Translations under genes and position numbers: made by a program
In this document: positions 16,323 through 61,680 of the stretch, piece by piece
How positions within the stretch are numbered: the stretch's first letter is position 1
Layout: each line of letters opens with the position of its first letter
DNA from: Squalus acanthias
Taxonomy: Eukaryota
DNA length: 64,000 bases
Direction: 5' to 3'
Assembly: GCA_030390025.1 (NCBI GenBank)
Contig: JASTWF010000418.1
Span: 186,001 to 250,000, forward strand
Notes under the pieces: generated by a model
Seen by the model: only the letters and a program-made list of their open reading frames with translations
What the model was told of the DNA's origin: nothing
Database searches by the model: none

Positions 16323-16408
16323 CTACCTCTTCTGATCCAGCGACGGGATGGTCTCCATTTGAAGTTCACCCTGTGGCCAGAGACTGTTTCTCTGCATTCG
16401 GTAACTGC
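16323..16408 (-). CDS. Terminal cytoplasmic exon [28 protein letters not shown]
   Basis: Very strong acceptor tttttcctcttctcttccctcacctgcag|; phase-1 frame open to TAG at 16325-16323. Confidence 0.75.
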
Positions 16409-31400: not shown

Positions 31401-34400
31401 CTAACCTGTGCTGTACCTGCCCTGGGAGTGTTTGATGGGACAGTGTAGAGGGAGCTTTACTCTGTATCTAACCCGTGCTGTACCTGCCCTGGGAGTGTTT
31501 GATGGGACAGTGTGCAGGGAGCTGTACTCTCTATCTAAGGGATGAGGTGTATCTTACCGTCATGTTTGCTGAGGGTCTGTGTCAGCGGAGTTGTTGAGGA
31601 AAGGTGTTTGACCAGACAGGTGAAGATCGATCCTGAATCCCATTCCCGGACAGGGACCTTTAACGTGCTGCTGGAACTGTAGGTCCCATTCTCGTGTTGC
31701 GTTGTGTGGCCAGGCTCCGAGGAGAAGGATGTCTGGCGGTTATTGATGAGCCAGGTGAAGGAGATGTTCCTGGGGTGAAATCCGACTGCCTGACACCCCA
31801 ATGCGGCCGTCCCGTTAGTGTCCATTTCATCGTAGGTGGGGGGTAGGACGTAGACGCTGGGAACCGTAGGGTATCGGGCTGGAGATCCACCGGAGAGAGA
31901 ACGGAATGAAGGCATTAGTGGGTGGTGAGAGATCAGGCCCACCTTGGAGCCCCCCAGTTAATCACCCCCCAGACTGGGGGCAACAGCGAGAGCAGCCCCT
32001 CACTCGGAGCCCCCCAGTTAATCACCCCCCAGACCAGGGGGACAGCGAGATCAGCCCCTCACTCAGAGCCCCCCAGTTAATCACCCCCCAGACTGGAGGG
32101 AACAGTGAGATCAGCCCCTCACTCAGAGCCCCCCAGTTAATCGCCCCCCAGACTGGGGGAAACAGCGAGATCAGCCCCTCACTCAGAGCCCCCCAGTTAA
32201 TCGCCCCCCAGACTGGGGGAAACAGCGAGATCAGCCCCTCACTCAGAGCCCCCCAGTTAATCGCCCCCCAGATTGGGGGGGGAACAGTGAGATCAGCCCC
32301 TCACTCAGAGCCCCCCAGTTAATCGCCCCCCAGACTGGGGGCAACAGTGAGATCAGCCCCTCACTCAGAGCCCCCCAGTTAATCGCCCCCCAGACTGGGG
32401 GGAACAGCGAGATCAGCCCCTCACTCAGAGCCCCCTAGTTAATCAACCCCCAGACTGGGGGGAACAGCGAGATCAGCCCCTCACTCTGAGCCCCCCAGTT
32501 AATCAACCCCCAGACTGTGGGCAACAGCGAGATCAGCCCCTCACTCGGAGCCCCCCAGTTCACCGGCCCCCCAGACTGGGGGGAGCAGCGTTGGAGGGTT
32601 TCCGATGTCTGGGTTGTGATTCCGCGGGGGCTCATTAACGACAATCGCGGGAACCCGCTGGATTGAAATGGAAGGGGAGTGGGTGGGGGTGGGGGGGTCC
32701 GGGGAGGAGCGCCCCTCACGATCTGTTCCCCGGGTTACAAACCTCCCCTCCCCAGCGACTGGGAGCCAAGCCCAGGGGTTAACCCACTAAACCTCCAACC
32801 CCCAACTCTCAAATCCCCAGCACGAATCTCCACCTCAAACCGCCCAGCCCAATTCAACCTCCCTAACCCCGACCCCCTCGCTGCCCCCCCGCCCCTCCCC
32901 CCAACAACCCCCAGCAGTCCAGACACTCACCTCTGGTCCTGATCTCCTTGACGATGGGCTGGGTCAGCGTCTGGTGTGAGACGACACACTGGTACTTGTC
33001 CACATCCACCCAGTCTCGACCCCTGACCTCCAGCTGACTGACGGTGGTGTACCGATCCGCGGGGTCTCGGGACAGAGGCTGCTCGGTGATTCCCGACCTC
33101 ACTCGTCTTCCGTCCGAGAACCAGGAGATCCGCACACTGGGGGGGTAGAATCCGCTGACTAGGCAGAGCAGGGGGGTGAAACCGTTCTCCGATATCTCCC
33201 CCGGGGGCGGGTAATGAAGCTGGACCGAGGGAGGAGAGGACGATGGCACTGGAACAAGAATCAAGGGGTCAGTCACTGGCCCGAGTGTCTCTGGCCCTGA
33301 ATCGAGGGGTCAATCACTGACCCGAGTATCTCTGGCCCAGAATCGAAAGGTCAATCAATGACCTCAGTGTCTCTGGCCCAGGATCGAGAGGTCAGTCACT
33401 GGCCCGAGTGTCTCTGGACCAGAATCGAGGTGTCAATCACTGGCCCGAGTGTCTCTGGACCAGAATCGAGGTGTCAATCACTGACCTCAGTGTGTCTGGC
33501 CCAGAATCGAGGGGTCAGTCACTGGCCTCAGTGTCTCTGGCCCAGAATCGAGAGGTCAATCACTGACCTGAGTGTCTCGGGCCCAGAATCGAGGGGTCAA
33601 TCACTGACCTCAGTGTGTCTGGCCCAGAATCGAGGGGTCAGTCACTGACCTCAGTGTGTCTGGCCCAGAATCGACAGTGATTGGACAGTGTAGAGGGAGC
33701 TTTACTCTGTATCTAACCCGTGCTGTACCTGCCCTGGGAGTGTTTGATGGGACAGTGTAGAGGGAGCTTTACTCTGTATCTAACCCCGTGCTGTACCTGC
33801 CCTGGGAGTGTTTGATGGGACAGTGTAGAGGGAGCTTTACTCTGTATCTAACCCCGTGCTGTACCTGCCCTGGGAGTGTTTGATGGGACAGTGTAGAGGG
33901 AGCTTTACTCTGTATCTAACCCCGTGCTGTACCTGCCCTGGGAGTGTTTGATGGGACAGTGCAGAGGGAGCTTTACTCTGTATCTAACCCGTGCTGTACC
34001 TGCCCTGGGAGTGTTGATGGGACAGTGTAGAGGGAGATTTACTCTGTATCTAACACCGTGCTGTACCTGATCCTGGGAGTGTTTGATGGGACAGTGTAGA
34101 GGGAGCTTTACTCTGTATCTAACCCCGTGCTGTACCTGCCCTGCGAGTGTTTGATGGGACAGTGTAGAGGGAGCTTTACTCTGTATCTAACCCGTGCTGT
34201 ACCTGCCCTGGGAGTGTTTGATGGGACAGTGTAGAGGGAGCTTTACTCTGTATCTAACCCGTGCTATACCTGCCCTGGGAGTGTATGATGGGACAGTGTA
34301 GAGGGAGCTTTACTCTGTGTCTAACCCGTGCTCTACCTGCCCTGGGAGTGTTTGATGGGACAGTGTAGAGGGAGCTTTACTCTGTATCTAACCACTTGCT

Positions 34401-37400
34401 GTACCTGCCCTGGGAGTGTTTGATGGGACAGTGTAGAGGGAACTTTACACTGTATCTAACCCGTGCTGTACCTGCCCAGGGAATGTTTGATGGGACAGTG
34501 TAGAGGGAGCTTTACTCTGTCTCTAACCCGTGCTGTACCTGCCCTGGGAGTGTTTGATGGGACAGTGTAGAGGGAGCTTTACTCTGTATAGTCAGAGTAG
34601 AAATAGGAGGATATTTCAAATGAATACGTGGCTAGAGGAATGGTGCAAGGGGGAGGGATTCAAATTCCTTGGACATTGGAACCGGTTCTGGGGGAGGTGG
34701 GACCAGTACAAACGGGACGGTCTGCACCTGGGCAGGGCCGGGACTGATGTCCTCGGGGGAGTGTTTGCTAGTGCTGTTGGGGAGGGTTTAAACTAAAGTG
34801 GCAGGGGGTTGGGAACCTGAGCAGGGAGACAGAGGAAAGGGAAATAAGGATAAAAGCTAAAGACAGGATGGAGAAAAACAAAAGTAGAAGGCAAAGAACT
34901 CAACGGTTTAAATCAAACATGGTCACAGTAAATAACAATTCATATAGGTCTGAGAGCGTTAAAAAAACAAGCCTGAAGGCTTTGTGTCTTAATGCAAGGA
35001 GCATTCGGAACAAGGTGGATGAATTAGCTGCGCAAATAGAGGTAAATGAATACGATTTGATTGGGATTACAGAAACATGGCTCCAGGGTGGCCAAGGCTG
35101 GGAACTCAACATCCAGGGTTATTCAATATTTAGGAAAGATAGGCAAAAAAGAAAGGGAGGTGGGGTAGCATTGCTGGTTAAAGAGGGGATTAACACAATT
35201 GAAAGGAAGGATATTAGCTCTGATGATGCGGAATCTGTATGGGTAGAACTGAGAAATAACAAGGGGCAGTAAACGTTAGTGGGAGTGGTATATAGACCTC
35301 CAAACAGTAATACGGAGGTTGGGGACGGCATTAAAAGGGAAATTAGAGAAGCATGCAGTAAGGGCACAGCAGTCATCATGGGTGACTTTAATTTACATAT
35401 AGATTGGGCTAACCAAATTAGTAAAAATACTGTGGAGGAGGAATTCCTAGCATGTTTACGAGATGGTTTTCTGGAACAATATGTCGAGGAACCAACCAGA
35501 GATCAGGCCATCTTAGACTGGGTATCATGCAACGAGAAAGGATTAATTAGCAATCTTGTTGTACGAGGCCCCTTGGGTCAGAGTGATCATAATATGATAG
35601 AATTCTTCATTAGGATGGAGAGTGAAGTAGTTGAATCAGAGACTAGGGTCCTGAATTTAAATAAAGGAAACTACGATGGTATGAGGCGCGAATTGGGTAG
35701 GATTGATTGGGGAATGTCACTCAAGGGGTTGACGGTGGATAGGCAATGGCAAACATTCAAAGACTGCATGGATGAACTACAGAATTTGTACATCCCAGTG
35801 TGGCATAAGAATAAAACAAAAAGGGTGACTCAACCGTGGCTAACAAGGGAAATTAGGGATAGCATAAGATCCAAGGAGAGGGCATATAAATTGGCCAGAA
35901 AAAGCGGTAGCCCTGAGGATTGGGAGCAGTTTAGGATTCAACAAAGGAGGACAAAGGGATTAATTAAGAAGGGGAAAATAGAATATGAAAGTAAGCTTGC
36001 TGGGAACATAAAAACTGACTGTAAGAGCTTTTATAGATATGTGAAGAGAAAAAGATTAGTTAAATCAAGTGTAGGTCCCTTGCAGTCAGAAGCGGCGGAA
36101 GTTATAATGGGGAATAAAGAAAAGGCAGCCCAATTAAATGCATATTTTGGTTCTGTCTTCACAAAGGAGGACACAAATAAGCTCCCAGAGATGTTGGAGA
36201 ACATACGGTCTGATGAAAGGGAGGAACTGAAAGAAATCAGTATTTGCAGGGAAATGGTGTTAGGGAAATTGACGGTATTGAAGGCCGATAAATCCCCAGG
36301 GCCTGATAATCTACATCCTAGGGTACTTAAGGAAGTGGCCCTAGAAATAGTAGATGCATTGCTGATCATCTTCCAACATTCGATGGAATCTGGAACTGTA
36401 CCCATGGATTGGAGGGTAGCTAATGTTACCCCACTATTCAAAAAGGGTGGTAGAGAGAAAGCGGGGAATTACAGACCGGTAAGCCTGACATCGGTAGTGG
36501 GGAAAATGCTAGAGTCCATTATAAAGGATGTAATAGCTGAGCATTTGAAAAACAGTGACAGGATCGGACAAAGTCAACATGGATTTACAAAAGGTAAATC
36601 GTGCTTGACTAATCTACTGGAATTTTTTGAGGATGTAACTGGGAAAATAGATAAGGGAGAACCAGTAGATGTGGTGTATTTGGACTTTCAAAAGGCTTTC
36701 GATAAGGTCCCGCATAAGAGATTAGCGGGTAAAGTTAAGGCACATGGGATTGGGGGCAAGGTATTGACTTGGATAGAGAACTGGTTGGCGGACAGAAAGC
36801 AGAGAGTAGGAATTAATGGGTCTTTTTCCGAGTGGCAAGCAGTGACTAGTGGGGTACCGCAGGGATCGGTCCTTGGACCCCAGCTATTCACAATATACAT
36901 TAATGATCTAGATAAGGGAATTAAATGTAATATCTCCAAGTTTGCAGATGACACAAAGCTGGGTGGGAGTGTGTGCAGCGAGGAGAATAGCGAGAAACTC
37001 CAGGATGATCTGGACAGGTTGGGTGAGTGGGCAGAAGCATGGCAGATGCAATATAACGTGGATAAGTGCGAGGTTATCCACTTTGGTGTCAAAAACAGAA
37101 AGGCAGACTATTATCTGAATGCAATAGATTGGGAGAAGGGGAAGTGCAACGAGACCTGGGTGTCCTTGTGCACCAGTCGCTGAAAGTAAGCATGCAGGTG
37201 CAGCAAGCGGTGAAGAAGGCAAATGGTATGTTGGCCTTCATAGCGAAAGAGTTTGAGTATAGGAACAGGGATGTCCTGCTGCAGTTGTACAGGGCCTTGG
37301 TGAGACCACACCTTGAGTACTGTGTGCAGTTTTGGTCGCCTTATCTGAGGAAGGATGTTCTTGCCATGGAAGGAGTTCAGCGAAGATTCACAAGGCTGAT

Positions 37401-40400
37401 ACCTGGGATGGCAGGAATGACATATGAGGAGAGATTGGGTCGATTGGGCTTATACTCGCTGGAGTATAGAAGAATGAGAGGGGATCTCATCGAAACATAT
37501 AAAATTCTGACAGGTCTGGACAAACTAGATGCAGGAAGAATGTTCCCGATGGTCGGAGAGTCCAGAACCAGGGGTCATAATCTACGGATAACGGGTAAAC
37601 GATTTAGGACAGAAATGAGAAAGAATTTCTTCACCCAGAGAGTAGTGAACCTGTGGAATTCTCTACCACAGAAGGTAGTTGAGGCGAAGTCATTAAATAT
37701 ATTCAAGGATAAGTTAGATATATTTCTTAAAGCTAAAGGTATCAAGGGATATGGGGAGAAGGAAGGTACAGGGTACTGAGTTTAGATGATCAGCCATGAT
37801 CTCATCGAATGGCGGAGCAGGCTCGAGGGGCCGAATGGCCTACTCCTGCTCCTATCTTCTATGTTTCTATGTTATGTTTCTAACCCGTGCTGTACCTGCC
37901 CTGGGAGTGTTTGATGGGACAATATGGAGGGAGCTTTACTCTGTATCTAACCTCTACTGCACCTGCCCTGGGAGTCTTTGATGGGACAGTGTAGAGGGAG
38001 CTTTACTCTGTATCTAACCCCGTGCTGTACCTGCGCTGGGCGTGTTTGATGGGACAGTGTAGAGGGAGCTTTACTCTGTATCTAACCAGTGCTGTACCTG
38101 CCCTGGGAGTGTTTGATGGGACAGTGTAGAGGGAGCTTTACTCTGTATCTAACCCGTGCTGTACCTGCCCTGGGAGTGTTTGATGGGACAGTGTAGAGGG
38201 AGAGGGTGTTGTGTAATGAGGAAGGACTAATCAGCAATCTTGTGGTACGAGGCCCCCTGGGGAAGAGTGACCATAGTATGGTGGAGTTCTACATTAGGAT
38301 GGAGAAGGAAACAGTTAAGTCAGAGACCATGGTCCAGAACTTAAATAAGGGCAACTTTGAGGGTATGAGGCGTGAATTGGTGAGGTTAAATTGGCAAGCG
38401 ATATTTAAGGGGCTATCAGTGGAAGGGCAATGGCAGACATTTAGAGATCGCATGGATGAACTACAACAATTGTACATCCCGGTCTGGCGTAAAAATAAAA
38501 AAGGGAAGGTGGCTCAACCATGGCTAACAAGGGAAATCAGGGATAGTATTAAAACCAAGGAAGTTGCATACAAATTGGCCAGAAGTAGCAGCAAACCCGG
38601 GGACTGGGAGAACTTCAAAACTCAGCAGAGGAGGACGAAGGGTTTGATTAGGACAGGGAAAATAAAATATGAAAGGAAGCTTGCAGAGAACATTAAAATG
38701 GACTGCAAAAGCTTCTATAAATATGTAAAAGGAAAGAGGTTAGTAAAAACAAACGTAGGTCCCCTGCAGTCGGAAACAGGGGAAGACGTAATGGGGAACA
38801 AGGAAATGGCTGATCAATTGAACAAGTACTTTGGTTCGGTGTTTACTGTGGAGGACACACACAACCTGCCGGAAATAAAAGGGGTCAGAGGATCTGGTAA
38901 GAGGGAGGAGCTAAGGGAAATCCTTATTAGTCGGGAAAAGGTATTGGGAAAATTGATGGGACTGAAGGCTGAAAAATCCCCGGGGCCTGATGGTCTGCAT
39001 CCCAGAGTACTTAAGGAGGTGGCCTTGGAAATAGTGGATGCATTGACGATCATTTTCCAACATTCCTTAGACTCTGGATCAGTTCCGATGGAGTGGAGGG
39101 TGGCCAATGTAACCCCTCTTTTTAAAAAAGGAGGGAGGGAGAAAGCTGGGAATTATAGACCGGTCAGCCTGACATCGGTCGTGGGTAAAATGATGGAAGC
39201 AATTATTAAAGATGTCATAACAGACCATTTGGAAAGTGGCGACATGATAGGTCCAAGTCAGCATGGATTTGTGAAAGGGAAATCATGCTTGACAAATCTT
39301 CTGGAATTTTTTGAGGATGTTTCCAATAGGGTGGACAGGGGGGAACCAGTAGATGTGGTGTATTTGGACTTTCAGAAGGCCTTCGACAAGGTCCCACACA
39401 AGAGATTGGTGAGCAAAGTTAAAGCACATGGGATTGGGGGTAATGTGTTGACGTGGATTGAGAACTGGTTGGCACACAGGAAACAAAGAGTAGGAGTAAA
39501 TGGGTACTTTTCAGAATGGCAGGCAGTGACCAGCGGGGTACCGCAGGGTTCGGTGCTGGGACCCCAGCTGTTTACATTATATATTAATGATTTGGACGAA
39601 GGGATTAAATGTAATATCTCCAAATTTGCGGATGACACTAAATTGGGAGGCAGTGTGAACAATGAGGAGGATGCTAGGAGGCTACAGAGTGACTTGGACA
39701 GGTTGGGTGAATGGGCAAATGTATGGCAGATGAAGTACAATGTGGATAAATGTGAGGTTATCCACTTTGGTGGTAAAAATAGAGAGGCGGACTACTACCT
39801 GAATGGTGGCAGATTAGGGAAAGGGGAGGTGCAACGAGACCTGGGCGTCATGGTACATCAGTCACTGAAGGTGGGAATGCAAGTGCAGCAGGCAGTCAAG
39901 AAAGCAAACGGAATGATGGCCTTCATAGTAAGGGGATTTGAGTACAGGAGTAGGGAGGTGATGCTGCAGTTGTACAGGGCCTTGGTGAGGCCACACCTGG
40001 TGTATTGTGCGCAGTTTTGGTCTCCTAACTTAAGGAAGGACATTCTTGCTATTGAGGGAGTGCAGCGAAGGTTCACTAGATTGATTCCTGGGATGGCCGG
40101 TCTGACATATCAAGAAAGATTGGGTCAACTGAACTTGTATCCTCTGGAGTTCAGAAGAATGAGGGGGGATCTTATAGAGACATTTAAAATCCTGACTGGT
40201 TTAGACAAATTAGATGCGGGCAGAATGTTCCCAATGTTAGGGAAAACTAGAACCAGGGGTCACAGTCTAAGGATTAAGGGGAAGCAATTTAAGACTGAGC
40301 TGAGGAGGAACTTCTTCACCCAGAGAGTGGTGAATCTATGGAATTCTCTTCCACAGAAGGTTGTTGAGGCCAGTTCGCTAAATATATTCAAAAGGGAGTT

Positions 40401-43400
40401 AGATATAACACTCACAACTAGGGGGATCAAGGGGTATGGCGAGAAAGCAGGAATGGGGTACTGAGCTAGCATGTTCAGCCATGAACGCATTGAATGGCGG
40501 TGCAGGCTCGAAGGACCGAATGGTCTACTCCTGTACCTAGTTTCTATGTTTCTATGTATCTAACCCCGTGCTGTACCTGCCCTGGGAGTGTTTGATGGGA
40601 CAGTGTCGAGGGAGCTTTACTCTGTATCTAACCCGTGCTGTACCTGCCCTGGGAGTGTTTGATGGGACAGTGTAGAGGGAGCTTTACTCTGTATCTAACC
40701 CGTGCTGTACCTGCCCTGGGAGTGTTTGATGGGACAGTGTAGAGGGAGCTTTACTCTGTGTCTAACCCGTGCTGTACCTGCCCTGGGAGTGTTTGATGGG
40801 ACAGTGTGCAGGGAGCTGTACTCTCTATCTAAGGGATGAGGTGTATCTTACCATCATGTTTGCTGAGGGTCTGTGTCAGCGGAGTTGTTGAGGAAAGGTG
40901 TTTGACCAGACAGGTGAAGATCGATCCTGAATCCCATTCCCGGACAGGGACCTTTAACGTGCTGCTGGAACTGTAGGTCCCATTCTCGTGTTGAGTTGTA
41001 TGGCCAGGCTCCGAGGAGAAGGATGTCTGGCGGTTATTGATGAGCCAGGTGAAGGAGATGTTCCTGGGGTGAAATCCGACTGCCTGACACCCCAATGTGG
41101 CCGTCCCGTTAGTGTCCATTTCATCGTAGGTGGGGGGTAGGACGTAGACGCTGGGAACCGTAGGGTATCGGGCTGGAGATCCACCGGAGAGAGAACGGAA
41201 TGAAGGCATTAGTGGGCGGTGAGAGATCAGGCCCACCTTGGAGCCCCCCAGTTAATCGCCCCCCAGACTGGGGGGACAGCGAGATCAGCCCCTCACTCAG
41301 AGCCCCCCAGTTAAACACCCCCCAGACTGGGGGGAACAGCGAGATCAGCCCCTCACTCAGAGCCCCCCAGTTAATCGCCCCCCAGACTGGGGGAACAGCG
41401 AGATCAGCCCCTCACTCAGAGCCCCCCAGTTAATCGCCCCCCAGACTGGGGGGGAACAGCGAGATCAGCCCCTCACTCAGAGCCCCCTAGTTAATCACCC
41501 CCCAGACTGGGGGCAACAGCGAGATCAGCCTCTCACTCAGAGCCCCCCAGTTAATCGCCCCCCAGACTTGGGGCAACAGCGAGATCAGCCCCTCACTCAG
41601 AGCCCCCCAGTTAATCGCCCCCCAGACTGCGGGGAACAGCAAGATCAGCCCCTCACTCAGAGCCCCCCAGTTAATCCCCCCCAGACTGGGGGGAAGAGCG
41701 AGATCACCCCCTCACTCAGAGCCCCCCAGTTAATCGCCCCCCAGATTGGGGTGTACAGTGAGAGCAGCCTGTAGGATAGAGTGTACCTGTAGGATTTACT
41801 AAACATTGTTAAGATTTTGTAACCATTATTAAATAAGTATAATATGTGAAATTCTATGTTAAAAACCTAAAACGCTTATATAAAATGCCAGGCAAGCAAA
41901 GCTTGATGGTAAAATTAAGCCAGCATTATGTTAACTGGGAGAATAGTGCTGAGTTGGTGTAGATTTTCTGTTATATTAAAAACAAGAAGCCAGTGAAGGA
42001 CAAAGCATTAATTAAGTCTCAAAGTAAGACAGAGGGTTTTCAATCCCCAACATCCCTTATCGCTGAAGTTTCAGACCAGTCTAGATAATGGGCTGTGGGA
42101 AAGGCAAAAGACCTCCGTCGTAATTCATGGGAAGTCCGGCTATGTGAAAGATCTCAAACTCAAAGCTCACAGCAGAATAGGGGAGGGAATCATAGACCGT
42201 ACTTGTGAAGGTCAGCATGGTGAGATAGCCCAAGCAGCTGCCAGTTGCTATGTATTTTGAAAGGGAAAAAAAGGTATAAAGGAACAGCTATTGAACACTG
42301 AAAGCAGTGCGAAACCAGAGGTCGAGAAGCTTCAGTCAACAGAACACAGCAAGAGAATAAAGAGACCGCGCCGCAGTCACTCGGAAGCAACGCCAGGGTT
42401 CAATGAACAGACGGCGACTATCTTCTTGTTAAGTATTACTTCTTTATACTGGATGTTTAATGTTTAATAAACCTGTTTTACTGATACACAATATACCTGG
42501 ACCCAGAGTGGTTTGTGTCGTCACGGACAAATTAATTCAGAGCTTTAAAAGCTACAAGACCCACCTCAGAGCCCCCCAGTTAATCGCCCCCCAGACTGGG
42601 GGGAACAGTGAGATCAGCCCCTCACTCGGAGCCCCCAGTTAATCGCCCCCCAGATTGGGGGGAAGTGCGAGATCAGCCCCTCACTTGGAGCCCCCCAGTT
42701 AATGAACCCCCAGATTGGGGGGGAAGAGCGAGATCAGCCCCTCACTCAGAGCCCCCCAGTTAATCAGCCCCCCAGACTGGGGGCATCCCACAAAACCTCC
42801 AACCCCCAATTCTCAAATCCCCAGCATGAATCTCCACCTCAAACCCCCAGCCCAATTCAACCTCCCTAACCCCGACCCCCTCGCTGCCCCCCCGCCCCCC
42901 CACCCAACAACCCCCAGCAGTCCAGACACTCACCTCTGGTCCTGATCTCCTTGACGATGGGCTGGGTCAGCGTCTGGTGTGAGACGACACACTGGTACTT
43001 GTCCACATCCACCCAGTCTCGACCCCTGACCTCCAGCTGACTGACGGTGGTGTACCGATCCGTGGGGTCTCGGGACAGAGGCTGCTCGGTGATTCCCGAC
43101 CTCACTTGTCTTCCGTCCGAGAACCAGGAGATCCGCACACTGGGGGGGTAGAATCCGCTGACTAGGCAGAGCAGGGGGGTGAAACCGTTCTCCGATATCT
43201 CCCCCGGGGGCGGGTAATGAAGCTGGACCGAGGGAGGAGAGGACGATGGCACTGGAACAAGAATCAAGGGGTCAGTCACTGGCCTGAGTGTCTCTGGCCC
43301 AGAATCGAGGGGTCAATCACTGACCTCAGTGTGTCTGGCCTAGAATCGAGGGGTCAGTCACTGACCTCAGTGTGTCTGGCCCAGAATCGAGGGGTCAGTC

Positions 43401-46400: not shown

Positions 46401-49400
46401 TTTACTCTGTATCTAACCCCGTGCTGTACCTGCCCTGGGAGTGTTTCATGGGACAGTGTCGAGGGAGCTTTACTCTGTATCTAACCCGTGGTGTACCTGC
46501 CCTGGGAGTGTTTGATGGGACAGTGTCGAGGGAGCTTTACTCTGAATCTAACCCCGTGCTGTACCTGCCCTGGGAGTGTTTGATGGGACAGTGTCGAGGG
46601 AGCTTTACTCTGTATCTAACCCATACTGTACCTGCCCTGGGAGTGTTTGATGGGACAGTGTAGAGGGACCTTTACTCCGTATCTAACCCGTGCTGTACCT
46701 GCCATGGGAGTGTTTGATGGGACAGTGTAGAGGGAGCTTTACTCTGTATCGAACCCCGTGCTGTACCTGCCCTGGGAGTGTTTGATGGGACAGTGGAGAG
46801 GGAGCTTTACTCTGTATCTAACCCGTGCTGTACCTGCCCTGGGAGTGTTTGATGGGACAGTGTAGAGGGACCTTTACTCTGTATCTAAACCGTGCTGTAC
46901 CTGCCTTGGGAGTGTTTGATGGGACAGTGTAGAGGGTTCTTTACTCTGTGTCTAACCTGTGCTGTACCTGCCCTGGGAGTGTTTGATGAGACAGTGTAGA
47001 GGGAGCTTTACTCTGTATCTAACTCGTGCTGTACCTGCCCTGGGAGTGTTTGATGGGACAGTGTAGAGGGGGCTTTACTCTGTATCTAACCCGTGCTGTA
47101 CCTGCCCTGAGAGTGTTTGATGGGACAGTGTAGAGGGAGCTTTACTCTGTATCTAACCCGTGCTGTACCTGCCCTGGGAGTGTTTGATGGGACAGTGTAG
47201 AGGGAGCTTTACTCTGTATCTAACCCCATGCTGTACCTGCCCTGGGAGTGTTTGATGGGCCAGTGTAGAGGGAGCTTTACTCTGTATCTAACGTGTGCTG
47301 TACCTGCCTTGGGAGTGTTTGATGGGACAGTGTAGAGGGAGCTTTACTCTGTATCTAACCCGTGCTATACCTGCCCCGGGAGTGCATGATGGGACAGTGT
47401 AGAGGGAGCTTTACTCTGTATCTAGCCCGTGCTGTACCTGTCCTGGGAGTGTTTGATGGGACAGTGTAGAGGGAGCTTTACTCTGTATCTAACCCGTGCT
47501 GGACCTGCCCTGAGAGTGTTTGATGGGACAGTGTAGAGGGAGCTTTACTCTGTATCTAACCCCGTGCTGTACCTGCCCTGGGAGTGTTTGATGGGACAGT
47601 GTAGAGGGAGCTTTACTCTGTATCTAACCCGTGCTGTACCTGCCCTGGGAGTGTTTGACGGGGCAGTGTAGAGGGAGCTTTACTCTGTATCTAACCCGTG
47701 CTGTACCTGCCCTGGGAGTGTTTGATGGGACAGTGTAGAGGGAGCTTTACTCTGTATCTAACCCGTGCTGTACCTGCCCTGGGAGTGTTTGATGGGACAG
47801 TGTAGAGGGAGCTTTACTCTGTATCTAACCCCGTGCTGTACCTGCCCTGGGAGTGTTTGATGGGACAGTGTAGAGGGAGCTTTAATCTGTATCTAACCCG
47901 TGCTGTACCTGTCCTGGGAGTGTTTGATGGGACAGTGTAGAGGGAGCTTTACTCTGTATCTAACCTGTGCTGTACCTGCCCTGGGAGTGTTTGATGGGAC
48001 AGTGTGCAGGGAGCTGTACTCTCTATCTGAGGGATGAGGTGTATCTTACCGTCATGTTTGCTGAGGGTCTGTGTCAGCGGAGTTGTTGAGGAAAGGTGTT
48101 TGACCAGACAGGTGAAGATCGAGCCTGAATCCCATTCCCGGACAGGGACCTTTAACGTGCTGCTGGAACTGTAGGTCCCATTCTCGTGTTGCGCTGTGTG
48201 GCCAGGCTCCGAGGAGAAGGATGTCTGGCGGTTATTGATGAGCCAGGTGAAGGAGATCTTCCTGGGGTGAAATCCGACTGCCTGACACCCCAATGTGGCC
48301 GTCCCGTTAGTGTCCATTTCATCGTAGGTGGGGGGTAGGACGTAGACGCTGGGAACCGTAGGGTATCGGGCTGGAGATCCACCGGAGAGACAACGGAATG
48401 AAGGCATTAGTGGGCGGTGAGAGATCAGGCCCACCTTGGAGCCCCCCAGTTAATCGCCCCCCAGACTGGGGGGAACAGCGAGATCAGCCCCTCACTCAGA
48501 GCCCCCCAGTTAATCACCCCCCAGACTGGGGGGAACAGTGAGATCAGCCCCTCACTCGGTGCCCCCCAGTTAATCGCCCCCCAGACTGGGGTGAACAGCG
48601 AGATCAGCCCCTCACTCAGAGACCCCCAGTTTACCGGCCCCCCAGTTAATCGCCCCCCAGACTGGGGGGGAAGAGCGAGAGGAGCCTGTAGGATATAGTG
48701 TACCTGTAGGATTTAGTAAACATTGTTAAGATTTTGTAACCATTATTAAGTAAGTATAATATGTGAAATTGTATGTTAAAAACCTAAAACGCCTGTATAA
48801 AATGGCTGGGAAGCAAAGCATGATGGTAAAATTAAGCCAACATTATGTTAACTGGGAGAATAGTGCTGAGTTGGTGTAGATTTTCTGTTATATTAAAAAC
48901 AAGAAGCCAGTGAAGGACAAAGCATTAATTAAGTCTCAAAGTAAGACAAAGGGGTAGAAATTAGTTCGCGCCCCATTTGGGGCGCAAATATTGTCTGGAC
49001 GCAAATATTAGCGCCTGGCGCTAATTATCGGCACTGACTGGAAACTTCACTTTTACCGCCCCGGGAGGTGAGTGGAGTGCTAAATCAGGCGCTGCACACC
49101 TGTCTTAAGGCGCAAAGGCCAAGGAGTGAGGCGCTACCTCAGAGCGCTGGCGAAGCTCATGTAATGTCAGTCAGCAATGGAACACACACACAATGGCACG
49201 GGCCAGTTCTTAAAGGGGATGGTTAATCTTGCTTTCCATCCACATCCTGTTCATTGCAGCCTTGAATCTCGGCCTGGAGAGACTTGCTCTTCAAATGTGC
49301 TGGAAAGAACAATGGAGAGTACCAGGCAAAGAGCTCAGAGTGCAGCTCCCACAATCTCTGCTAAATCGATACAAGGAATGGCAAATCAAAATGAACCTGC

Positions 49401-52400
49401 AAAGTGCTGCTCAGTACCCAAAACTCCTTCACACAACGTTGAATCTCTTCAGAAGTCTCTCCCTCTCTCTCTCAGAATGCGTAGTTCAAAAATGCCACCA
49501 ACAATAAAAGACAGGAAGAGGCCCCCTTTAAATAGCGCCCCCCCCAGCCCCACAGCGATTGATAGCGTTCCAGTCTTCTGGTCGTTGGATGCGCCAGGCG
49601 GTAAGGCAGGGGGCGCCACTCAATTTCCGCTCCGGGGCGCCACAAGGGCGTTGCACCATGGAATGACGTCACAATCTGCGCGCGCAGGTGGTCGCAGCGG
49701 TAAAGTATAGCGCCGCCGCACAATCTCTAGTTAAGTTCCCGAGCGGCGCAAACATCGCTGCGCCCGGGCGTTAGCGGCTTTGCGCCCCATTAGCGCCCTC
49801 TTAAGGCGCTAACGGGAGGCGCAACCAACTGAATTTTTACCCCAAAGGGTTTTCAATACCGAACATCCCTCATCGCTGAAGTTTCAGACCAGTCTAGATA
49901 ATGGGCTGTGGGAAAGGCAAAAGACCTCCGTCTTAATTCATGGGAAGTCCGGCTATGTGCAAGATCTCAAACTCAAAGTTCACAGCAGAATAGGGGAGGG
50001 AATCATAGACCGTACTTGTGAAGGTCCGCATGGTGAGATAGCCCAAGCAGCTGCCAGTTGCTATGTATTTTGAAAGGGAAAAAAAAGGTATAAAGGAACA
50101 GCTATTGAACACTGAAAGCAGTGCGAAACCAGAGGTCGAGAAGCTTCAGTCAACAGAACACATCAAGAGAATAAAGAGACCGCGCCGCAGTCACTCGGAA
50201 GGAACACCAGGGTTCAATGAACAGACGGCGACTATCTTCTTGTTAAGTATTACTTCTTTATACTGGATGTTTAATGTTTAATAAACCTGTTTTACTGATA
50301 CACAATATACCTGGACCTAGAGTGGTTTGTGTCATAGAAACACGGACAAATTAATTCAGAGCTTTAAAAGCTACAAGACCCACCTCAGAGCCCCCCAGTT
50401 AATCACCCCCCAGACTGGGGGGAAGAGCGAGATCAGCCCCTCACTCAGAGCCCCCCAGTTAATCGCCCCCCAAACTGGGGGAAACAGCGAGATCAGCCCC
50501 TCACTCAGAGCCTCCCAGTTAATCACCCCCCAGACTGGGGGGAAGAGTGAGATCAACCCCTCACTCAGAGCCCCCCAGTTAATCAGACCCCAGACTGGGG
50601 GAAACAGCGAGATCAGCCCCTCACTCGGAGCCCCGCAGTTTACCGGCCCCCCAGATTGGGGGGAACAGCGTTGGGGGGGTTTCTGACGTCTGGGTTGTGA
50701 TTCCGCGGGGGCTCATTAACGACAATCGCGGGAACCCGCTGGATTGAAATGGAAGGGGAGTGGGGGGGGGTGGGGGGGGGCCGGGGAGGAGCGCCCCTCG
50801 CGATCTGTTCCCTGGGTCACAAACCTCCCCTCCCCTCCCCCGGTGACTGGGAGCCAAGCCCAGGGGTTAACCCACTAAACCTCCAACCCCCAACTCTCTA
50901 ATCCCAGCACAAATCTCCACCTCAAACCCCCCAGCCCAATTCAACCTCCCTAACCCCCGAACCCTCGCTGCCCCCCCGCCCCCCCCCCAACAACCCCCAG
51001 CAGTCCAGACACTCACCTCTGGTCCTGATCTCCTTGACGATGGGCTGGGTCAGCGTCTGGTGTGAGACGACACACTGGTATTTGTCCACATCCACCCAGT
51101 CTCGACCCCTGACCTCCAGCTGACTGACGGTGGTGTACCGATCCGCGGGGTCTCGGGACAGAGGCTGCTCGGTGATTCCCGACATCACTCGTCTTCCGTC
51201 CGAGAACCAGGAGATCCGCACACTGGGGGGGTAGAATCCGCTGACTAGGCAGAGCAGGGGGGTGAAACCGTTCTCCGATATCTCCCCCGGGGGCGGGTAA
51301 TGAAGCTGGACCGAGGGAGGAGAGGACGATGGCACTGGAACAAGAATCAAGGGGTCAGTCACTGGCCTGAGTGTCTCTGGCCCAGAATCGAGGGGTCAGT
51401 CACTGACCTTAGTGTGTCTGGCCCAGAATCGAGGGGTCAGTCACTGACCTCAGTGTGTCTGGCCCAGAATCGAGGGGTCAGTCACTGACCTCAGTGTGTC
51501 TGGCCCAGAATCGAGGGGTCATTCACTGGCCCGAGTGTCTCTGGCCCAGAATCGAGGGGTCATTCACTGGCCCGAGTGTCTCTGGCCCAGATTCGAAAGG
51601 TCAACCACTGACCTCAGTGTGTCTGGCCCAGAATCGAGGGGTCAGTCACTGACCTCAGTGTCTCTGGCCCAGAATCAACAGTGATTGGACAGTGTAGATG
51701 GAGCTTTCCTCTGTATCTAACCCGTGCTGTACCTGCCCTGGGAGTGTTTGATGGGACAGTGTAGAGGGAGCTTTACTCAGTATCTAACCCGTGCTGTACC
51801 TGCCCTGGGAGTGTTTGATGGGGACAGTGTAGAGGGAGCTTTACTCTGTATCTAACCCATGCTGTACCTGCCCTGGGAGTGTTTGATGGGACAGTGTAGA
51901 GGGAGCTTTACTCTGTATCTAACCCTGTGCTGTACCTGCCCTGGGAGTGTGTGATGGGACAGTGTAGAGGGAGCTTTACTCTGTATCTAACCCGTGCTGT
52001 ACCTGCCTTGGGAGTGTTTGATGGGACAGTGTAGAGGGAGCTTTACTCTGTATCTAACCCGTGCTATACCTGCCCCGGGAGTGCATGATGGGACAGTGTA
52101 GAGGGAGCTTTACTCTGTATCTAACCCCATGCTGTACCTGCCCTGGGAGTGTTTGATGGGACAGTGTAGAGGGAGCTTTACTCTGTATCTAACCCGTGCT
52201 GTACCTGCCCTGGGAGTGTTTGATGGGACAGTATAGAGGGAGCTTTACTCTGTATCTAACCCGTGCTGTACCTGCCCTGGGAGTGTTTGATGGGACAGTG
52301 TGCAGGGAGCTGTACTCTCTATCTAAGGGATGAGGTGTATCTTACCATCATGTTTGCTGAGGGTCTGTGTCAGCGGAGTTGTTGAGGAAAGGTGTTTGAC

Positions 52401-55400
52401 TAGACAGGTGAAGATCGAGCCTGAATCCCATTCCCGGACAGGGACCTTTAACATGCTGCTGGAACTGTAGGTCCCATTCTCGTGTTGCGTTGTGTGGCCA
52501 GGCTCCGAGGAGAAGGATGTCTGGCGGTTATTGATGAGCCAGGTGAAGGAGATCTTCCTGGGGTGAAATCCGACTGCCTGACACCCCAATGTGGCCGTCC
52601 CGTTAGTGTCCATTTCATCGTAGGTGGGGGGTAGGACGTAGACGCTGGGAACCGTAGGGTATCGGGCTGGAGATCCACCGGAGAGACAACGGAATGAAGG
52701 CATTAGTGGGCGGTGAGAGATCAGGCCCACCTTGGAGCCCCCCAGTTAATCGCCCCCCAGTTAATCGCCCCCCAGACTGGGGGGAACAGCGAGATCAGCC
52801 CCTCACTCAGAGCCCCCCAGTTAATCACCCCCCAGACTGGGGGGAACAGTGAGATCAGCCCCTCACTCGGTGCCCCCCAGTTAATCGCCCCCCAGACTGG
52901 GGTGAACAGCGAGATCAGCCCCTCACTCAGAGACCCCCAGTTTACCGGCCCCCCAGTTAATCGCCCCCCAGACTGGGGGGGAAGAGCGAGAGGAGCCTGT
53001 AGGATATAGTGTACCTGTAGGATTTAGTAAACATTGTTAAGATTTTGTAACCATTATTAAGTAAGTATAATATGTGAAATTGTATGTTAAAAACCTAAAA
53101 CGCCTGTATAAAATGGCTGGGAAGCAAAGCATGATGGTAAAATTAAGCCAACATTATGTTAACTGGGAGAATAGTGCTGAGTTGGTGTAGATTTTCTGTT
53201 ATATTAAAAACAAGAAGCCAGTGAAGGACAAAGCATTAATTAAGTCTCAAAGTAAGACAAAGGGGTAGAAATTAGGTCGCGCCCCATTTGGGGCGCAAAT
53301 ATCGTCTGGACGCAAATATTAGCGCCTGGCGCTAATTATCGGCACTGACTGGAAACTTCACTTTTACCGCCCCGGGAGGTGAGTGGAGTGCTAAATCAGG
53401 CGCTGCACACCTGTCTTAAGGCGCAAAGGCCAAGGAGTGAGGCGCTACCTCAGAGCGCTGGCGAAGCTCATGTAATGTCAGTCAGCAATGGAACACACAC
53501 ACAATGGCATGGGCCAGTTCTTAAAGGGGATGGTTAATCTTGCTTTCCATCCACATCCTGTTCATTGCAGCCTTGAATCTCGGCCTGGAGAGACTTGCAC
53601 ATCAAATGGAGAGTACCAGGCAAAGAGCTCAGAGTGCAGCTCCCACAATCTCTGCTAAATCGATACAAGGAATGGCAAATCAAAATGAACCTGCAAAGTG
53701 CTGCTCAGTACCCAAAACTCCTTCACACAACGTTGAATCTCTCCAGAAGTCTCTCCCTCTCTCTCTCAGAATGCGTAGTTCAAAAATGCCACCAACAATA
53801 AAAGACAGGAAGAGGCCCCCTTTAAATAGCGCCCCCCCCAGCCCCACAGCGATTGATAGCGTTCCAGTCTTCTGGTCGTTGGATGCGCCAGGCGGTAAGG
53901 CAGGGGGCGCCACTCAATTTCCGCTCCGGGGCGCCACAAGGGCGTTGCACCATGGAATGACGTCACAATCTGCGCGCGCAGGTGGTCGCAGCGGTAAAGT
54001 TTAGCGCCGCCGCACAATCTCTAGTTAAGTTCCCGAGCAGCGCAAACATCGCTGTGCCCGGGCGTTAGCGGCTTTGCGCCCCATTAGCGCCCTCTTAAGG
54101 CGCTAACGGGAGGCGCAACCAACTGAATTTTTACCCCAAAGGGTTTTCAATACCGAACATCCCTCATCGCTGAAGTTTCAGACCAGTCTAGATAATGGGC
54201 TGTGGGAAAGGCAAAAGACCTCCGTCTTAATTCATGGGAAGTCCGGCTATGTGCAAGATCTCAAACTCAAAGTTCACAGCAGAATAGGGGAGGGAATCAT
54301 AGACCGTACTTGTGAAGGTCAGCATGGTGAGATAGCCCAAGCAGCTGCCAGTTGCTATGTATTTTGAAAGGGAAAAAAAAGGTATAAAGGAACAGCTATT
54401 GAACACTGAAAGCAGTGCGAAACCAGAGGTCGAGAAGCTTCAGTCAACAGAACACAGCAAGAGAATAAAGAGACCGCGCCGCAGTCACTCGGAAGGAACG
54501 CCAGGGTTCAATGAACAGACGGTGACTATCTTCTTGTTAAGTATTACTTCTTTATACTGGATGTTTAATAAACCTGTTTTACTGATACACAATATACCTG
54601 GACCCAGAGTGGTTTGTGTCATAGAAACACGGACAAATTAATTCAGAGCTTTAAAAGCTACAAGACCCACCTCAGAGCCCCCCAGTTAATCACCCCCCAG
54701 ACTGGGGGGAAGAGCGAGATCAGCCCCTCACTCAGAGCCCCCCAGTTAATCGCCCCCCAAACTGGGGGAAACGGCGAGATCAGCCCCTCACTCAGAGCCT
54801 CCCAGTTAATCACCCCCCAGACTGGGGGGAAGAGTGAGATCAGCCCCTCACTCAGAGCCTCCCAGTTAATCAGACCCCAGACTGGGGGGAAGAGCGAGAT
54901 CAGCCCCTCACTCGGAGCCCCGCAGTTTACCGGCCCCCCAGATTGGGGGGAACAGCGTTGGGGGGGTTTCTGACGTCTGGGTTGTGATTCCGCGGGGGCT
55001 CATTAACGACAATCGCGGGAACCCGCTGGATTGAAATGGAAGGGGAGTGGGGGGGGGTGGGGGGGGGCCCCGGGGAGGAGCGCCCCTCGCGATCTGTTCC
55101 CCGGGTCACAAACCTCCCCTCCCCTCCCCCGGTGACTGGGAGCCAAGCCCAGGGGTTAACCCACTAAACCTCCAACCCCCAACTCTCTAATCCCAGCACA
55201 AATCTCCACCTCAAACCCCCCAGCCCAATTCAACCTCCCTAACCCCCGAACCCTCGCTGCCCCCCCGCCCCCCCCCCAACAACCCCCAGCAGTCCAGACA
55301 CTCACCTCTGGTCCTGATCTCCTTGACGATCGGCTGGGTCAGCGTCTGGTGTGAGACGACACACTGGTACTTGTCCACATCCACCCAGTCTCGACCCCTG

Positions 55401-58400
55401 ACCTCCAGCTGACTGACGGTGGTGTACCGAGCCGCGGGGTCTCGGGACAGAGGCTGCTCGGTGATTCCCGACCTCACTCGTCTTCCGTCCGAGAACCAGG
55501 AGATCCGCACACTGGGGGGGTAGAATCCGCTGACTAGGCAGAGCAGGGGGGTGAAACCGTTCTCCGATATCTCCCCCGGGGGCGGGTAATGAAGCTGGAC
55601 CGAGGGAGGAGAGGACGATGGCACTGGAACAAGAATCAAGGGGTCAGTCACTGGCCCGAGTGTCTCTGGCCCAGAATCGAGGGGTCAGTCACTGACCTCA
55701 GTGTGTCTGGCCCAGAATCGAGGGGTCAATCACTGACCTCAGTGTGTCTGGTACAGAATCGAGGGGTCATTCTCTGACCTCTGATCTCACAATCACATAT
55801 ATCACAAGAACAGTGTGCGTGACTAGAGGTCTATAAAGATCGTGAGCTTTTCTTTTAGCAGAGAGGGACAAGGACGAAAGGTTCGACGATGGTTAGGTCT
55901 CTACCCACAGGATAAACGGTGTTAATTGTGTTTACTTCTCTGCTTGGTTGAGCACATTAAAAGGTTTAAGTTGAAACCATATTTGGCATCAGATTCGAAT
56001 TCTCTGACACAGGGCAATGGGACTAAGGAGGGAGCTCGGTCAGAGAGAGGGCACGGGGGCGATGGGCTAAATTTCCTCGTCTGCTGTAAAATTCTCTCAC
56101 TTTATGATCCTTGAGTCACAGATATAAACAACAAACTCTAGGATACTTGGAATTCCCACTACAGGTTCTTCCCCTGTGGGACTCCTCACTCCCAAAACTG
56201 TTCGAATCTTCACCTGAAACTGTGGGGACTCCTTGACCTCAAAACTGTAGGATTCTTCACCCCCCAAACTGTGGGACTCCTCTTCCCCAAACTGTGGGAC
56301 TCTTCATCCCCCAAACTGTGGGACTCCTCTACCATAAGACTGTAGGATTCTTCACCTCCAAATTGTGGGACTCCTCATCTCCGAAACTCTGGTACTCCTC
56401 ACCTCCCAAACTCTGAGACTCCTCACCTTCAAACCAATGGAATCCTCATCTCCAATTATTGGGACTCCTCACTCCCAAAATTATTGGTTCTCTCACCTCA
56501 AAAGTGTCGGTCTCCATGACCACCAAACTGTTCAACTCTTCACCCCCAAACTGTGAGTCTCCTCACCCCCAAAACTCTGGGACTCCTTACCCCCAAACTG
56601 TGGGACACCTTCCTTCCAAACTCTGGGACTCCTTACCCACAAACTGTGGGACTCCTCACCCCCAAACTGTGGGACTCCTCACCCCCCAAACTCTGGGACG
56701 CGGCACCCCCAAAACCCTGGGACTCCTCACCACCAAATTGTGGGACTCCTCACTTCCAAACTTTGGGACTCCTCAACCCCGCAAACTGTGGGGACTCCTC
56801 ACCACCAAACTGTAGGACTCCTCAACACCAAACTGTGGGACTGCTCACTTCCAACCTCTGGGAGTCCTCGCCCCCAAACTGTGCAACCTTTCACCCCCAA
56901 ACTGTTGGACTCCTCACCCCCAAATTCTGTGACCCCTCATCTCTCTAAATTGTCCCTTTGTCCTAAAATCAGCTGGTCTTGGCGTAACTCCAAACCACCG
57001 TTCCCTGAACTGCCTCATCTGATGTCCTCCACCCTCCAAGCTTGGCTGTGGGCCATCGACTGCCCGTTCCCATTCCACCCCTCCCTTGCCCCCAAACGGG
57101 TTTCGGACGAGCTCCCCTACCGGCCTCGACCTTCAGTGTAGATCCACAGCCGCACCAATCTGTCGTGTTCTTGTCTCCCAGGTGGTCTGTCATTTGGCAG
57201 AAGTACCTGGTGGAATCTTGCTGCGTGGCATTAGCGATCCGCAGAGACATCTGCTTTCGGCCAAAGTTCTTCTCGGCCACGTAACGGTGAGCTTTCCCAG
57301 CCATGAAGGTTGGGACCTGTGACTTGGGGCTCCAGTACACCAGCTGCTTCATGGCCCCAGTGCCAGGGGGGACGTAACCCCAGATCAAGTACCGGTCGTC
57401 TGTCTTGCGGGAGAATCGGCACTCCATCGTGACCGACTCGCCCTCCCGGACGCTCATTAATGTGGACGAGAATCGGAAGTTCCCACCGCAGGAGGTGAGC
57501 CCTGAAAATAGAGAGAGAGACACAACTCGTGAATCCTCCCACCAAAGATAACTCAGGAAATGTAGGACGGTCGCAGCTAAGGCTGCACTTTGACATTGGT
57601 CAAGGTAAAGCTTGGTACAGAACCTTGGTTAGACCACACTTGGAGCAATGTGCCCAGTCCCGGTCTCCACATACCTTGGATAGACCACACTTGGAGCACT
57701 GTGCACAGTCCCGGTCTCCACATACCTTGGATAGACCACACTTGGAGCACTGTGCACAGTCCCGGTCTCCATATACCTTGGATAGACCACACTTGGAGCA
57801 CTGTGCACAGTCCCGGTCTCCACATACCTTGGATAGACCACACTTGGAGCACTGTGCACAGTCCTGGTCTCCACATACCTTGGATAGACCACACTTGGAG
57901 CAATGTGCACAGTCCCGGTCTCCATATACCTTGGATAGATCACACTTGGAGCAATGTGCCCAGTCCCGGTCTCCATATACCTTGGATAGACCACACTTGG
58001 AGCACTGTGCACAGTTCTGGTCTCCATATACCTTGGTTAGACCACACTTGGAGCAATGTGCCCAGTCCTGGTCTCCATATACCTCGGTTAGACCACACTT
58101 GAAGCAATGTGCCCAGTCCCGGTCTCCACATACCTTGGATAGACCACACTTGGAGCAATGTGCCCAGTCCTGGTCTCCATATACCTTGGTTAGACCACAC
58201 TTGGAGCAATGTGCCCAGTCCCGGTCTCCACATACCTTGGTTAGACCACACTTGGAGCACTGTGCACAGTCCTGGTCTCCATATACCTTGGTTAGACCAC
58301 ACTTGGAGCACTGTGCACAGTCCTGGTCTCCACATACCTCGGTTAGACCACACTTGGAGCACTGTGCCCAGTCCTAATCTCCATATACCTGGGTTAGACC

Positions 58401-61567: not shown

Positions 61568-61680
61568 GTTGGGAGGAGAGCTGACACGACACATCCTTCT
61601 CAACGGCTGGAGTCCGATCTTCTGGTCCTCGCACACACTCCCTTTCAGAGCGAGTCAGCCTCTGTCCTTCCTCTCCATTC

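What the first reader, a model, noticed from the sequence alone, without database searches (positions are those of the whole stretch)
31558..55623. Five recent tandem duplications of a two-exon (A-B) C1 module, ordered by nested TE insertions
Seen: five A-B units differ by only 1-3 aa per domain and all are intact. The unit 5 intron has no LTR, units 3 and 4 carry the solo LTR, and units 1 and 2 carry the LTR plus a nested MITE at an identical site. This implies the order: LTR insertion, duplication, MITE insertion, duplication. Copy-specific substitutions and insertions argue against a simple assembly artefact. Established: IgD/IgW lineages also expand C domains by tandem exon-block duplication. 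Inference: stalk length is evolving quickly and may be copy-number polymorphic. Because all exons are phase 1-1, skipping can also tune the length.
Basis: partly seen in the sequence, partly recalled or inferred. Interest (0 to 1): 0.7.

Follow-up and report, generated by a model that had tools for sequence, protein, structure and literature searches.

The report
Shark UrIg2 cluster with variable stalks
The five repeated exon pairs are the stalk of a shark antibody-like membrane protein gene (UrIg2) that sits in a row of at least eight near-identical copies carrying one to six such pairs, likely reshuffled by unequal crossing-over, so near-identical binding tips would be held at different heights above the cell.

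Summary
Observation confirmed: five intact A-B exon pairs differ by 1-3 aa per domain. Unit 5 has no LTR, units 3-4 a solo LTR, units 1-2 the LTR plus a MITE at one site.

The gene is an orthologue of UrIg2, a published non-rearranging VJ-C1 receptor: leader-V-(A-B)5-C-(D-E)2-TM-tail, 1,826 aa open. Two-exon stalk duplication is already published for UrIg2, but there for C2-C3; here the unit is C1-C2.

New here: the scaffold holds 7 V exons plus an orphan tail. Unit numbers are 6, 1, 5, 2, 2, at least 4 and at least 1. The three TE states recur across paralogues. All 14 B-to-A introns share one breakpoint, each window unit is closest to a unit in another gene, and one paralogue lost a unit. 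So the TE order dates intron lineages older than this gene, not five private duplications.

Probable-RNA contigs show A>B splicing in 4 of 4 runs and B>A in 3 of 4. Skipping and between-individual polymorphism are untested. A third UrIg branch seen in passing was noted earlier by this scan on other DNA (e1-8641666).

The parts
61522..61594 (-). Leader exon (split leader, 73 nt)
   Evidence: tblastn with the sevengill-shark protein P0001; boundaries
57121..57501 (-). Unsplit VJ exon, UrIg2 type, with the two extra G-strand cysteines; no RSS
   Evidence: PDB 9dmx E=1e-55; V tree 100/99; no heptamer or nonamer within 56901-57700
55306..55623 (-). A1 (orthologue of UrIg2 C1; interchain Cys182 position is Ser)
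52998..54662 (+). Solo LTR, unit 1, with nested MITE
53262..54137 (.). MITE in unit 1 LTR (13-bp terminal inverted repeats, AAA duplication)
52346..52666 (-). B1 (C2-type domain absent from the nurse-shark construct)
51017..51334 (-). A2
48687..50375 (+). Solo LTR, unit 2, with nested MITE
48951..49843 (.). MITE in unit 2 LTR
48050..48370 (-). B2
45877..46194 (-). A3
44713..45499 (+). Solo LTR, unit 3, no MITE
44019..44339 (-). B3
42934..43251 (-). A4
41770..42556 (+). Solo LTR, unit 4, no MITE
40852..41172 (-). B4 (extra N-glycan sequon at residue 37)
34591..40550 (+). Two LINE-type insertions (about 34591-37870 and 38211-40550) in the B4-A5 intron; most of this block is shared at 99.7% with paralogue g3
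   Evidence: 64-65% similar to an RVT_1-bearing frame
33257..34589 (.). 41-bp array fused to 67-bp array; the fusion point (about 33682; also 43562, 46382, 51686) is the shared duplication breakpoint
32931..33248 (-). A5
31929..32590 (.). 60-bp minisatellite of the A-B intron, uninterrupted in unit 5 (the LTR target in the other units)
31558..31878 (-). B5 (extra sequon at residue 37)
27955..28272 (-). C exon (second C1-type domain, 44% to A by the P0001 comparison)
26281..26601 (-). D1 (orthologue of UrIg2 C2)
24557..24880 (-). E1 (C3 type)
21878..22198 (-). D2
20437..20760 (-). E2
16993..17130 (-). Transmembrane exon
16323..16408 (-). Short cytoplasmic exon with stop

Best explanation
This is the stalk of one copy in a tandem cluster of at least eight UrIg2 genes, in which a C1-C2 (A-B) exon pair shares one duplication breakpoint in every copy and has likely been gained, lost and swapped since by unequal crossing-over within and between the genes. 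Shown: one breakpoint; unit numbers of 1-6 per gene; three TE-marked intron lineages shared across genes; mosaic units; one deletion; open frames in 4 of 5 complete genes; spliced B-to-A joints. Inferred sequence of events: (1) an ancestral V-A-B-C-D-E-TM gene, as in the sevengill shark, duplicated A-B once, fusing the 67-bp array behind B to the 41-bp array in front of A; (2) an LTR entered one unit, that unit duplicated, and a MITE entered the V-proximal copy; (3) the whole gene multiplied; (4) misaligned crossovers and conversion in the minisatellite-rich introns keep changing the unit number. Phase 1-1 exons keep any such change in frame. Predicted product: disulfide-linked homodimeric membrane receptors with near-identical V tips on stalks of 8, 8, 16 and 18 Ig domains (about 27-60 nm if straight), most likely innate ligand-binding or adhesion molecules in which the stalk acts as a glycosylated spacer.
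For: Orthology. Cluster and unit counts; all 21 B matches in the assembly lie on this scaffold. Single breakpoint in 14 of 14 B-to-A introns. Intron classes ordered M, L, 0 without inversion in 7 of 7 genes. Exons do not cluster by gene (permutation p=0.94) and cluster weakly by intron class (p=0.001); 37 of 91 informative site pairs fail the four-gamete test. Nearest neighbour in another gene for 5 of 5 window units. Paralogue g3 carries the window's B4-A5 LINE block joined to 135 bp before C, so it lost a unit. Purifying selection on A (7 nonsynonymous, 12 synonymous variants) and B (14, 10). Single A-B in the sevengill-shark model. A>B joint in 4 of 4, B>A in 3 of 4 and V>A in 1 of 4 probable-RNA runs from 2 studies. 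Homodimer, tissue expression and 335 A per 10 domains come from PMC12227049 (main text parts 1-5 of 8), for the nurse-shark protein.
Against: No crossover was caught directly; recurrent mutation can inflate four-gamete failures, and the unit tree has no strongly supported branch. Contigs cannot show how many units one transcript carries, and a B>A joint would also arise from back-splicing. The scaffold is unplaced, has a 500-N gap and cuts genes at both ends. Two of 10 D exons have a 1-base loss in a C run, which is either real decay or sequencing error. A lacks the Cys that links the nurse-shark C1 domains, so stalk pairing is untested. No protein, ligand or function was tested. A benefit of length variation is not shown.
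Confidence: 0.78

Rival explanations
1. One reading: all five units arose inside this gene by LTR insertion, duplication, MITE insertion, duplication.
For: The nesting is real. LTRs of units 3 and 4 differ by 0.6%, units 1 and 2 by 0.6%, and the two pairs by 2.7-3.4%. Units 3 and 4 share an intron deletion.
Against: The same states occur in other paralogues; sister gene g1 has the same M-M-L start with near-equal intron lengths. Exons and flanks do not follow the LTR grouping. Junction subtypes run x, y, x, z along the window gene.
Confidence: 0.1
2. Neutral turnover: repeat-rich introns make the array unstable, selection only removes frame-breaking changes, and stalk length has no function of its own. 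Compatible with the recombination mechanism; it denies only the adaptive reading.
For: B-to-A introns consist of minisatellite alone, apart from the LINE block. Lengths range from 8 to 18 domains without a pattern. Mean V pN (0.021) equals pS (0.022), which fits relaxed constraint. Possible pseudogenes g5 and g0.
Against: Three lineages each expanded a different unit: D-E in nurse and epaulette sharks (PMC12227049), C-hinge 1 versus 5 times in two stingray proteins, A-B here. All 21 A and 20 complete B exons are intact. V has more amino-acid changes than A+B (Fisher p=0.016).
Confidence: 0.45
3. Assembly artefact: haplotypes or noisy reads were strung together, inflating genes and units.
For: Unplaced 417-kb scaffold with an N gap. 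Two V exons are identical (g3, g5) and several LTRs are identical across genes.
Against: Intergenic blocks are 96.3-97.8% identical in all 15 pairs among the six head-to-tail blocks, so none looks like an allelic pair. Six V exons lie in one gap-free 345-kb stretch. Units have private insertions and lengths. B>A joints occur in 3 other runs. The part left of the gap (g0, g1) could still be a second haplotype.
Confidence: 0.1
4. TE states were spread among existing units by gene conversion, so even the M-L-0 order does not reflect duplication order.
For: MITE-bearing LTRs in six genes differ by only 0-0.8% while intergenic DNA differs by about 3%, which points to recent homogenisation of the V-proximal unit. 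The LTRs themselves fail the four-gamete test in 51 of 253 pairs.
Against: Conversion would have to copy 0.8-1.7-kb insertions. The order along the gene is never inverted in 7 genes.
Confidence: 0.25

Closest known systems
UrIg2 (Flajnik et al. 2025, PMC12227049; PDB 9dmx)
   Same: Unsplit VJ exon, split leader, C1-set stalk, TM and short tail; V cysteines for the homodimer; two-exon repeats homogenised within a species; gene structure that varies between species.
   Different: Published repeats are C2-C3 (nurse shark 9 C domains, epaulette 11), with one gene listed per shark and 2-3 models in a stingray (table S1). Here the main repeat is C1-C2, two extra domain types (B, C) are present, and at least 8 paralogues differ in length within one genome. 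Fig. S1A and Fig. 4C are pictures that I could not see and may already show the B and C types.
IgD/IgW constant-exon block duplications (cod, catfish, sturgeon, coelacanth; PMC5192425, passages)
   Same: Tandem duplication of 2-3 exon blocks lengthens the constant region.
   Different: Those are rearranging, lymphocyte-expressed Ig heavy chains. This V is unsplit and lies in the UrIg2 clade.
UrIg (MHC-linked; known to me through PMC12227049 and PMC10751288; the original paper was not held)
   Same: Unsplit VJ and C1/C2/C3 domain types. B keeps an NG(T/S) sequon aligned with that of UrIg C2.
   Different: UrIg is secreted and conserved; V is 36% identical, and the UrIg-type V in this genome lies on another contig (C336).

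Membership tests
UrIg2 | VJ domain in one exon, no RSS | tested here: met
   381-nt exon runs through the G strand; no heptamer or nonamer
UrIg2 | V groups with named UrIg2 proteins, apart from UrIg | tested here: met
   Clade 100/99 with XP_051865846.1, XP_041031358.1 and XP_048449493.1, which the paper lists as UrIg2; PDB 9dmx best hit
UrIg2 | Split leader | tested here: met
   73-nt phase-1 leader exon, rest in the V exon
UrIg2 | C1-set domains orthologous to C1, C2, C3 | tested here: met
   Pfam C1-set for A-E; A = C1 111 bits; D = C2 88 bits; E groups with the C3 type and matches the C3 sequence printed in fig. S3 by eye
UrIg2 | TM and cytoplasmic exons | tested here: met
   6 TM exons on the scaffold
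UrIg2 | Two non-canonical V cysteines (V-V disulfides) | tested here: met
   C-x-C on the G strand in 7 of 7 V exons; dimer formation itself not tested
UrIg2 | C1-C1 disulfide (Cys182) | tested here: not met
   Ser at that position in A; the great-white C1 also lacks it, so it is not family-defining
UrIg2 | Linkage to the IgH/TCR alpha-delta complex | not testable with these tools
   Scaffold C3243 is unplaced, and no other antigen-receptor V scored on it
UrIg2 | Expression in gill and liver rather than lymphocytes | not testable with these tools
   Runs are coded and contigs give no level
IgW/IgD heavy chain | Separate V, D, J segments with RSS | tested here: not met
Solo LTR | TG...CA ends, target-site duplication, dispersed family with paired copies around an internal region | tested here: met
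MITE (PIF/Harbinger type, name recalled) | Terminal inverted repeats, 3-bp duplication, high copy number | tested here: inconclusive
   Inverted repeats and AAA duplication met; other copies on the scaffold; no autonomous partner was sought, so the superfamily is not tested

The most novel reading that the evidence does not exclude
UrIg2 in this shark is a germline receptor family that varies along two axes, V sequence (17 of 21 variants change the amino acid) and stalk length (8-18 domains), with length under selection and polymorphic between individuals. The ancestral UrIg2 had five C-exon types (A-B-C-D-E, from an old C1-C2 duplication), and squalomorph sharks, carpet sharks and rays each expanded a different module, which would revise the published three-domain ancestor of the closest relative of the RAG-invaded gene.
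Probability: 0.3. Interest if true: 0.72.

Novelty: new variant of a known kind. Interest (0 to 1): 0.5.

Why it matters
UrIg2 is proposed as the closest living relative of the gene that RAG invaded, and its function is unknown (PMC12227049). A cluster of near-identical paralogues that differ mainly in stalk length is a natural experiment on what the stalk does. The TE-marked units let the gain and loss of exon pairs be followed step by step. Domain typing also suggests that the nurse-shark model protein is a deletion derivative lacking B and C, which bears on reconstructions of the ancestor. The gene and the principle of two-exon duplication are already in print, which caps the surprise.

Tried and rejected
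the A query was out of frame and gave 0 hits; redone.

no holder is on record as RNA; 8 of 22 rows are guessed RNA and I laid 4 of them. Unique intron bins were at depth 0-1, which fits RNA but does not prove it.

4 DNA-type runs were laid. The MITE-less joint appears in all 4 but may come from the dispersed LTR family, so it says nothing about units. Contig depths for B, A and V were about 20, 15, 13 (X1); 295, 125, 92 (X5); 101, 91, 27-30 (X14, another species); 9, 12, 8 (X19, another species). The assembly predicts 3:3:1. The tool states that depth is no copy number, so I use these neither for nor against polymorphism.

The RT frame between the C7 LTR pair is a LINE insertion, not the LTR element's own pol; rejected as evidence.

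The unit tree has no starred branch and was not used for ordering.

One search (B, longer proteins) found only P0001 among 47 candidates. One search found nothing for the C3 V; one search then found its relatives. Searches were uninformative. Searches returned no earlier finding.

The 66-bp, 9.5-kb array at 6563-16051 lies beyond the stop codon; rejected as a mucin exon of this gene.

No structure or complex job was run: a B-A junction of this gene cannot be given as one unaltered stretch, and a pass would rest on likeness to 9dmx and Fc.

Literature: 'UrIg'+'shark' 4 papers, 'UrIg2' 2, non-rearranging/shark/gene conversion/C1 domains 2. None of the listings describes a multi-copy, C1-C2-repeat cluster. 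Subscription journals are not covered.
Full report
Observation. The minus strand carries one V-set exon and 15 C1-set exons. Five A-B pairs run from 55623 to 31558. All have canonical splice sites and are phase 1-1, and they differ by 1-3 aa per domain. The LTR is confirmed as a solo LTR by its ends, a 4-bp duplication, a dispersed family at 89-92% and a paired copy with gag-type sequence inside.

Identity of the gene. The V exon's best PDB match is UrIg2 (9dmx, E=1e-55; next hit 2e-10). A matches its C1 and D its C2. Two of the three proteins found by the V search carry accessions that PMC12227049 lists as UrIg2, and the V tree places the window V in that clade at 100/99. Leader, TM and tail exons were found with the sevengill-shark protein. 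The full frame is leader-V-(A-B)5-C-(D-E)2-TM-tail, 1,826 aa without a stop, with 19 N-glycan sequons. Of PMC12227049 I read main-text parts 1-5 of 8, part 1 of 2 of the supplement PDF and the UrIg2 rows of table S1; figures were not visible. It reports nurse-shark UrIg2 as V-C1-(C2-C3)4-TM, made by two-exon duplications and gene conversion, a disulfide-linked homodimer expressed in gill and liver. Of PMC5192425 and PMC10751288 I saw passages only; all other papers only as search listings.

The cluster. The window lies at 186,001-250,000 of a 416,886-base scaffold that holds 7 leaders, 7 V exons (94-100% aa) and 6 TM exons. One tail (g0) has its 5' part in the single N gap, so there are at least 8 genes. 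A-B counts are: g1 at least 4 (cut by the scaffold end), g2 6, g3 1, g4 (window) 5, g5 2, g6 2, g7 at least 1 (inverted, cut). D-E counts are 1 or 2. Four of the 5 complete genes are open, at 972, 974, 1,826 and 2,039 aa (8, 8, 16 and 18 Ig domains); g5 has a 1-base loss in a C run of D, as does g0. Intergenic DNA is 96.3-97.8% identical among the six head-to-tail blocks, with no allelic-looking pair.

How the array changes. All 14 B-to-A introns join the 41-bp array to the 67-bp array at the same point, so one founding duplication suffices; later changes by homologous exchange are inferred. The 21 units fall into 8 with LTR+MITE (M), 5 with LTR only (L) and 8 without (0). They are ordered M M L 0, M L 0 0 0 0, M, M M L L 0, M L, M 0 and 0 in g1-g7. 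M LTRs differ by 0-0.8% across six genes, L by 0.6-2.7%, M versus L by 1.9-3.4%. Exons (A 1.0%, B 1.4% mean) do not cluster by gene (p=0.94) and cluster weakly by class (p=0.001); 37 of 91 site pairs are incompatible with one tree. Each of the 5 window units is nearest to a unit in another gene. g3 shares the window's two-LINE block at 99.7% but joins it to 135 bp before C, so its single unit is a contraction. The TE nesting therefore dates intron lineages that predate, or were spread across, the gene copies.

Expression. In 4 runs guessed to be RNA (2 studies, 2 organisms), contigs join A to B at the GT-AG ends in 4 of 4, V to A in 1 of 4, and the end of B back to the start of A in 3 of 4. 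With one unit as reference, the last joint is what tandem splicing of successive units gives; back-splicing would give it too. Unit number per transcript and skipping remain open.

Selection. Distinct variants (nonsynonymous, synonymous): A 7, 12; B 14, 10; C 4, 5; D 5, 8; E 6, 6; V 17, 4. V differs from A+B (p=0.016), but its mean pN equals its pS, so relaxation is as likely as positive selection. A K/N change in B adds a sequon in 9 of 20 copies, while the sequons at residues 21 and 63 are kept in 20 of 20.

Deeper history. In a 19-row tree, A and C fall with UrIg C1, B and D with UrIg C2, and E with the C3 type; the split of C2-type from the rest has 95/90 support, and finer nodes are open. 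The sevengill shark has V-A-B-C-(D-E)2-TM, the sawfish V-B-C-hinge-C-hinge-TM, the whale shark V-A-D (partial), and two stingray proteins V-B-(C-hinge) once or five times. The simplest reading, an inference, is an ancestor with A-B-C-D-E from which each lineage kept and expanded a different module. In the sharks examined, C1/C3-type and C2-type domains always alternate; by analogy with the crystal structure, where C1 and C3 pair and C2 does not, this may be why repeats come in twos. This is untested, and B and D keep the Pro and His residues that the paper ties to C1/C3 geometry.

Verdict. The feature is real and the gene is a member of a known family whose two-exon duplication is published. 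The multi-copy cluster with graded stalk length, the C1-C2 unit and the cross-gene history were not found in the papers searched. New variant of a known kind; interest 0.5.

Noticed in passing
G000:C3:132,113,832-132,124,736 (L054, L055); also C3:132,089,232-132,095,465 and C3:158,840,157-158,845,623: Three unsplit VJ genes of a third UrIg-family branch: one with V-C1-C2-C3, one without a C2 hit, one apparently frameshifted. Relatives with TM regions exist in Mustelus, Chiloscyllium and Scyliorhinus, and a V in Rhincodon; they form a clade (91/90) apart from UrIg and UrIg2. Synteny not examined. Agrees with earlier finding e1-8641666.
   Followed up: partly
G000:C336:67,989-76,716 (L058, L059): UrIg itself: V, C1 and C2 found; no C3 hit up to the contig end.
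   Followed up: partly
window 19826-26601: A second two-exon repeat, (D-E)2. Its E-to-D intron is shared at about 97-98% with g3, g2 and g0, while g5 and g6 have one D-E.
   Followed up: partly
P0010 and P0012 (Hemitrygon akajei): Two UrIg2 proteins with 1 and 5 C-hinge modules on a contig of the same length, with five annotated isoforms of 872-1,044 aa for the long one: the same length variation in a ray.
   Followed up: partly
window 6563-16051: A 66-bp satellite of about 144 copies (9.5 kb) starts just behind the last exon; similar repeat frames appear behind other gene copies.
   Followed up: no
window 18039-18883: An older copy of the same MITE family (83%) in the E-TM intron, present in all six tails on the scaffold.
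   Followed up: no
window 20150-20436 and 24270-24556: The frame stays open for about 95 Pro/Ser-rich codons past the E donor site, a possible read-through secreted tail; untested.
   Followed up: no
window 20437-20760: E2 carries an extra Cys (also in g2 E2), and every intact D has an unpaired Cys; these could add interchain links.
   Followed up: no
G000:C3311: A scaffold with about 34 V-like matches at 30-37% to the window V, probably an Ig or TCR V cluster; linkage to C3243 unknown.
   Followed up: no
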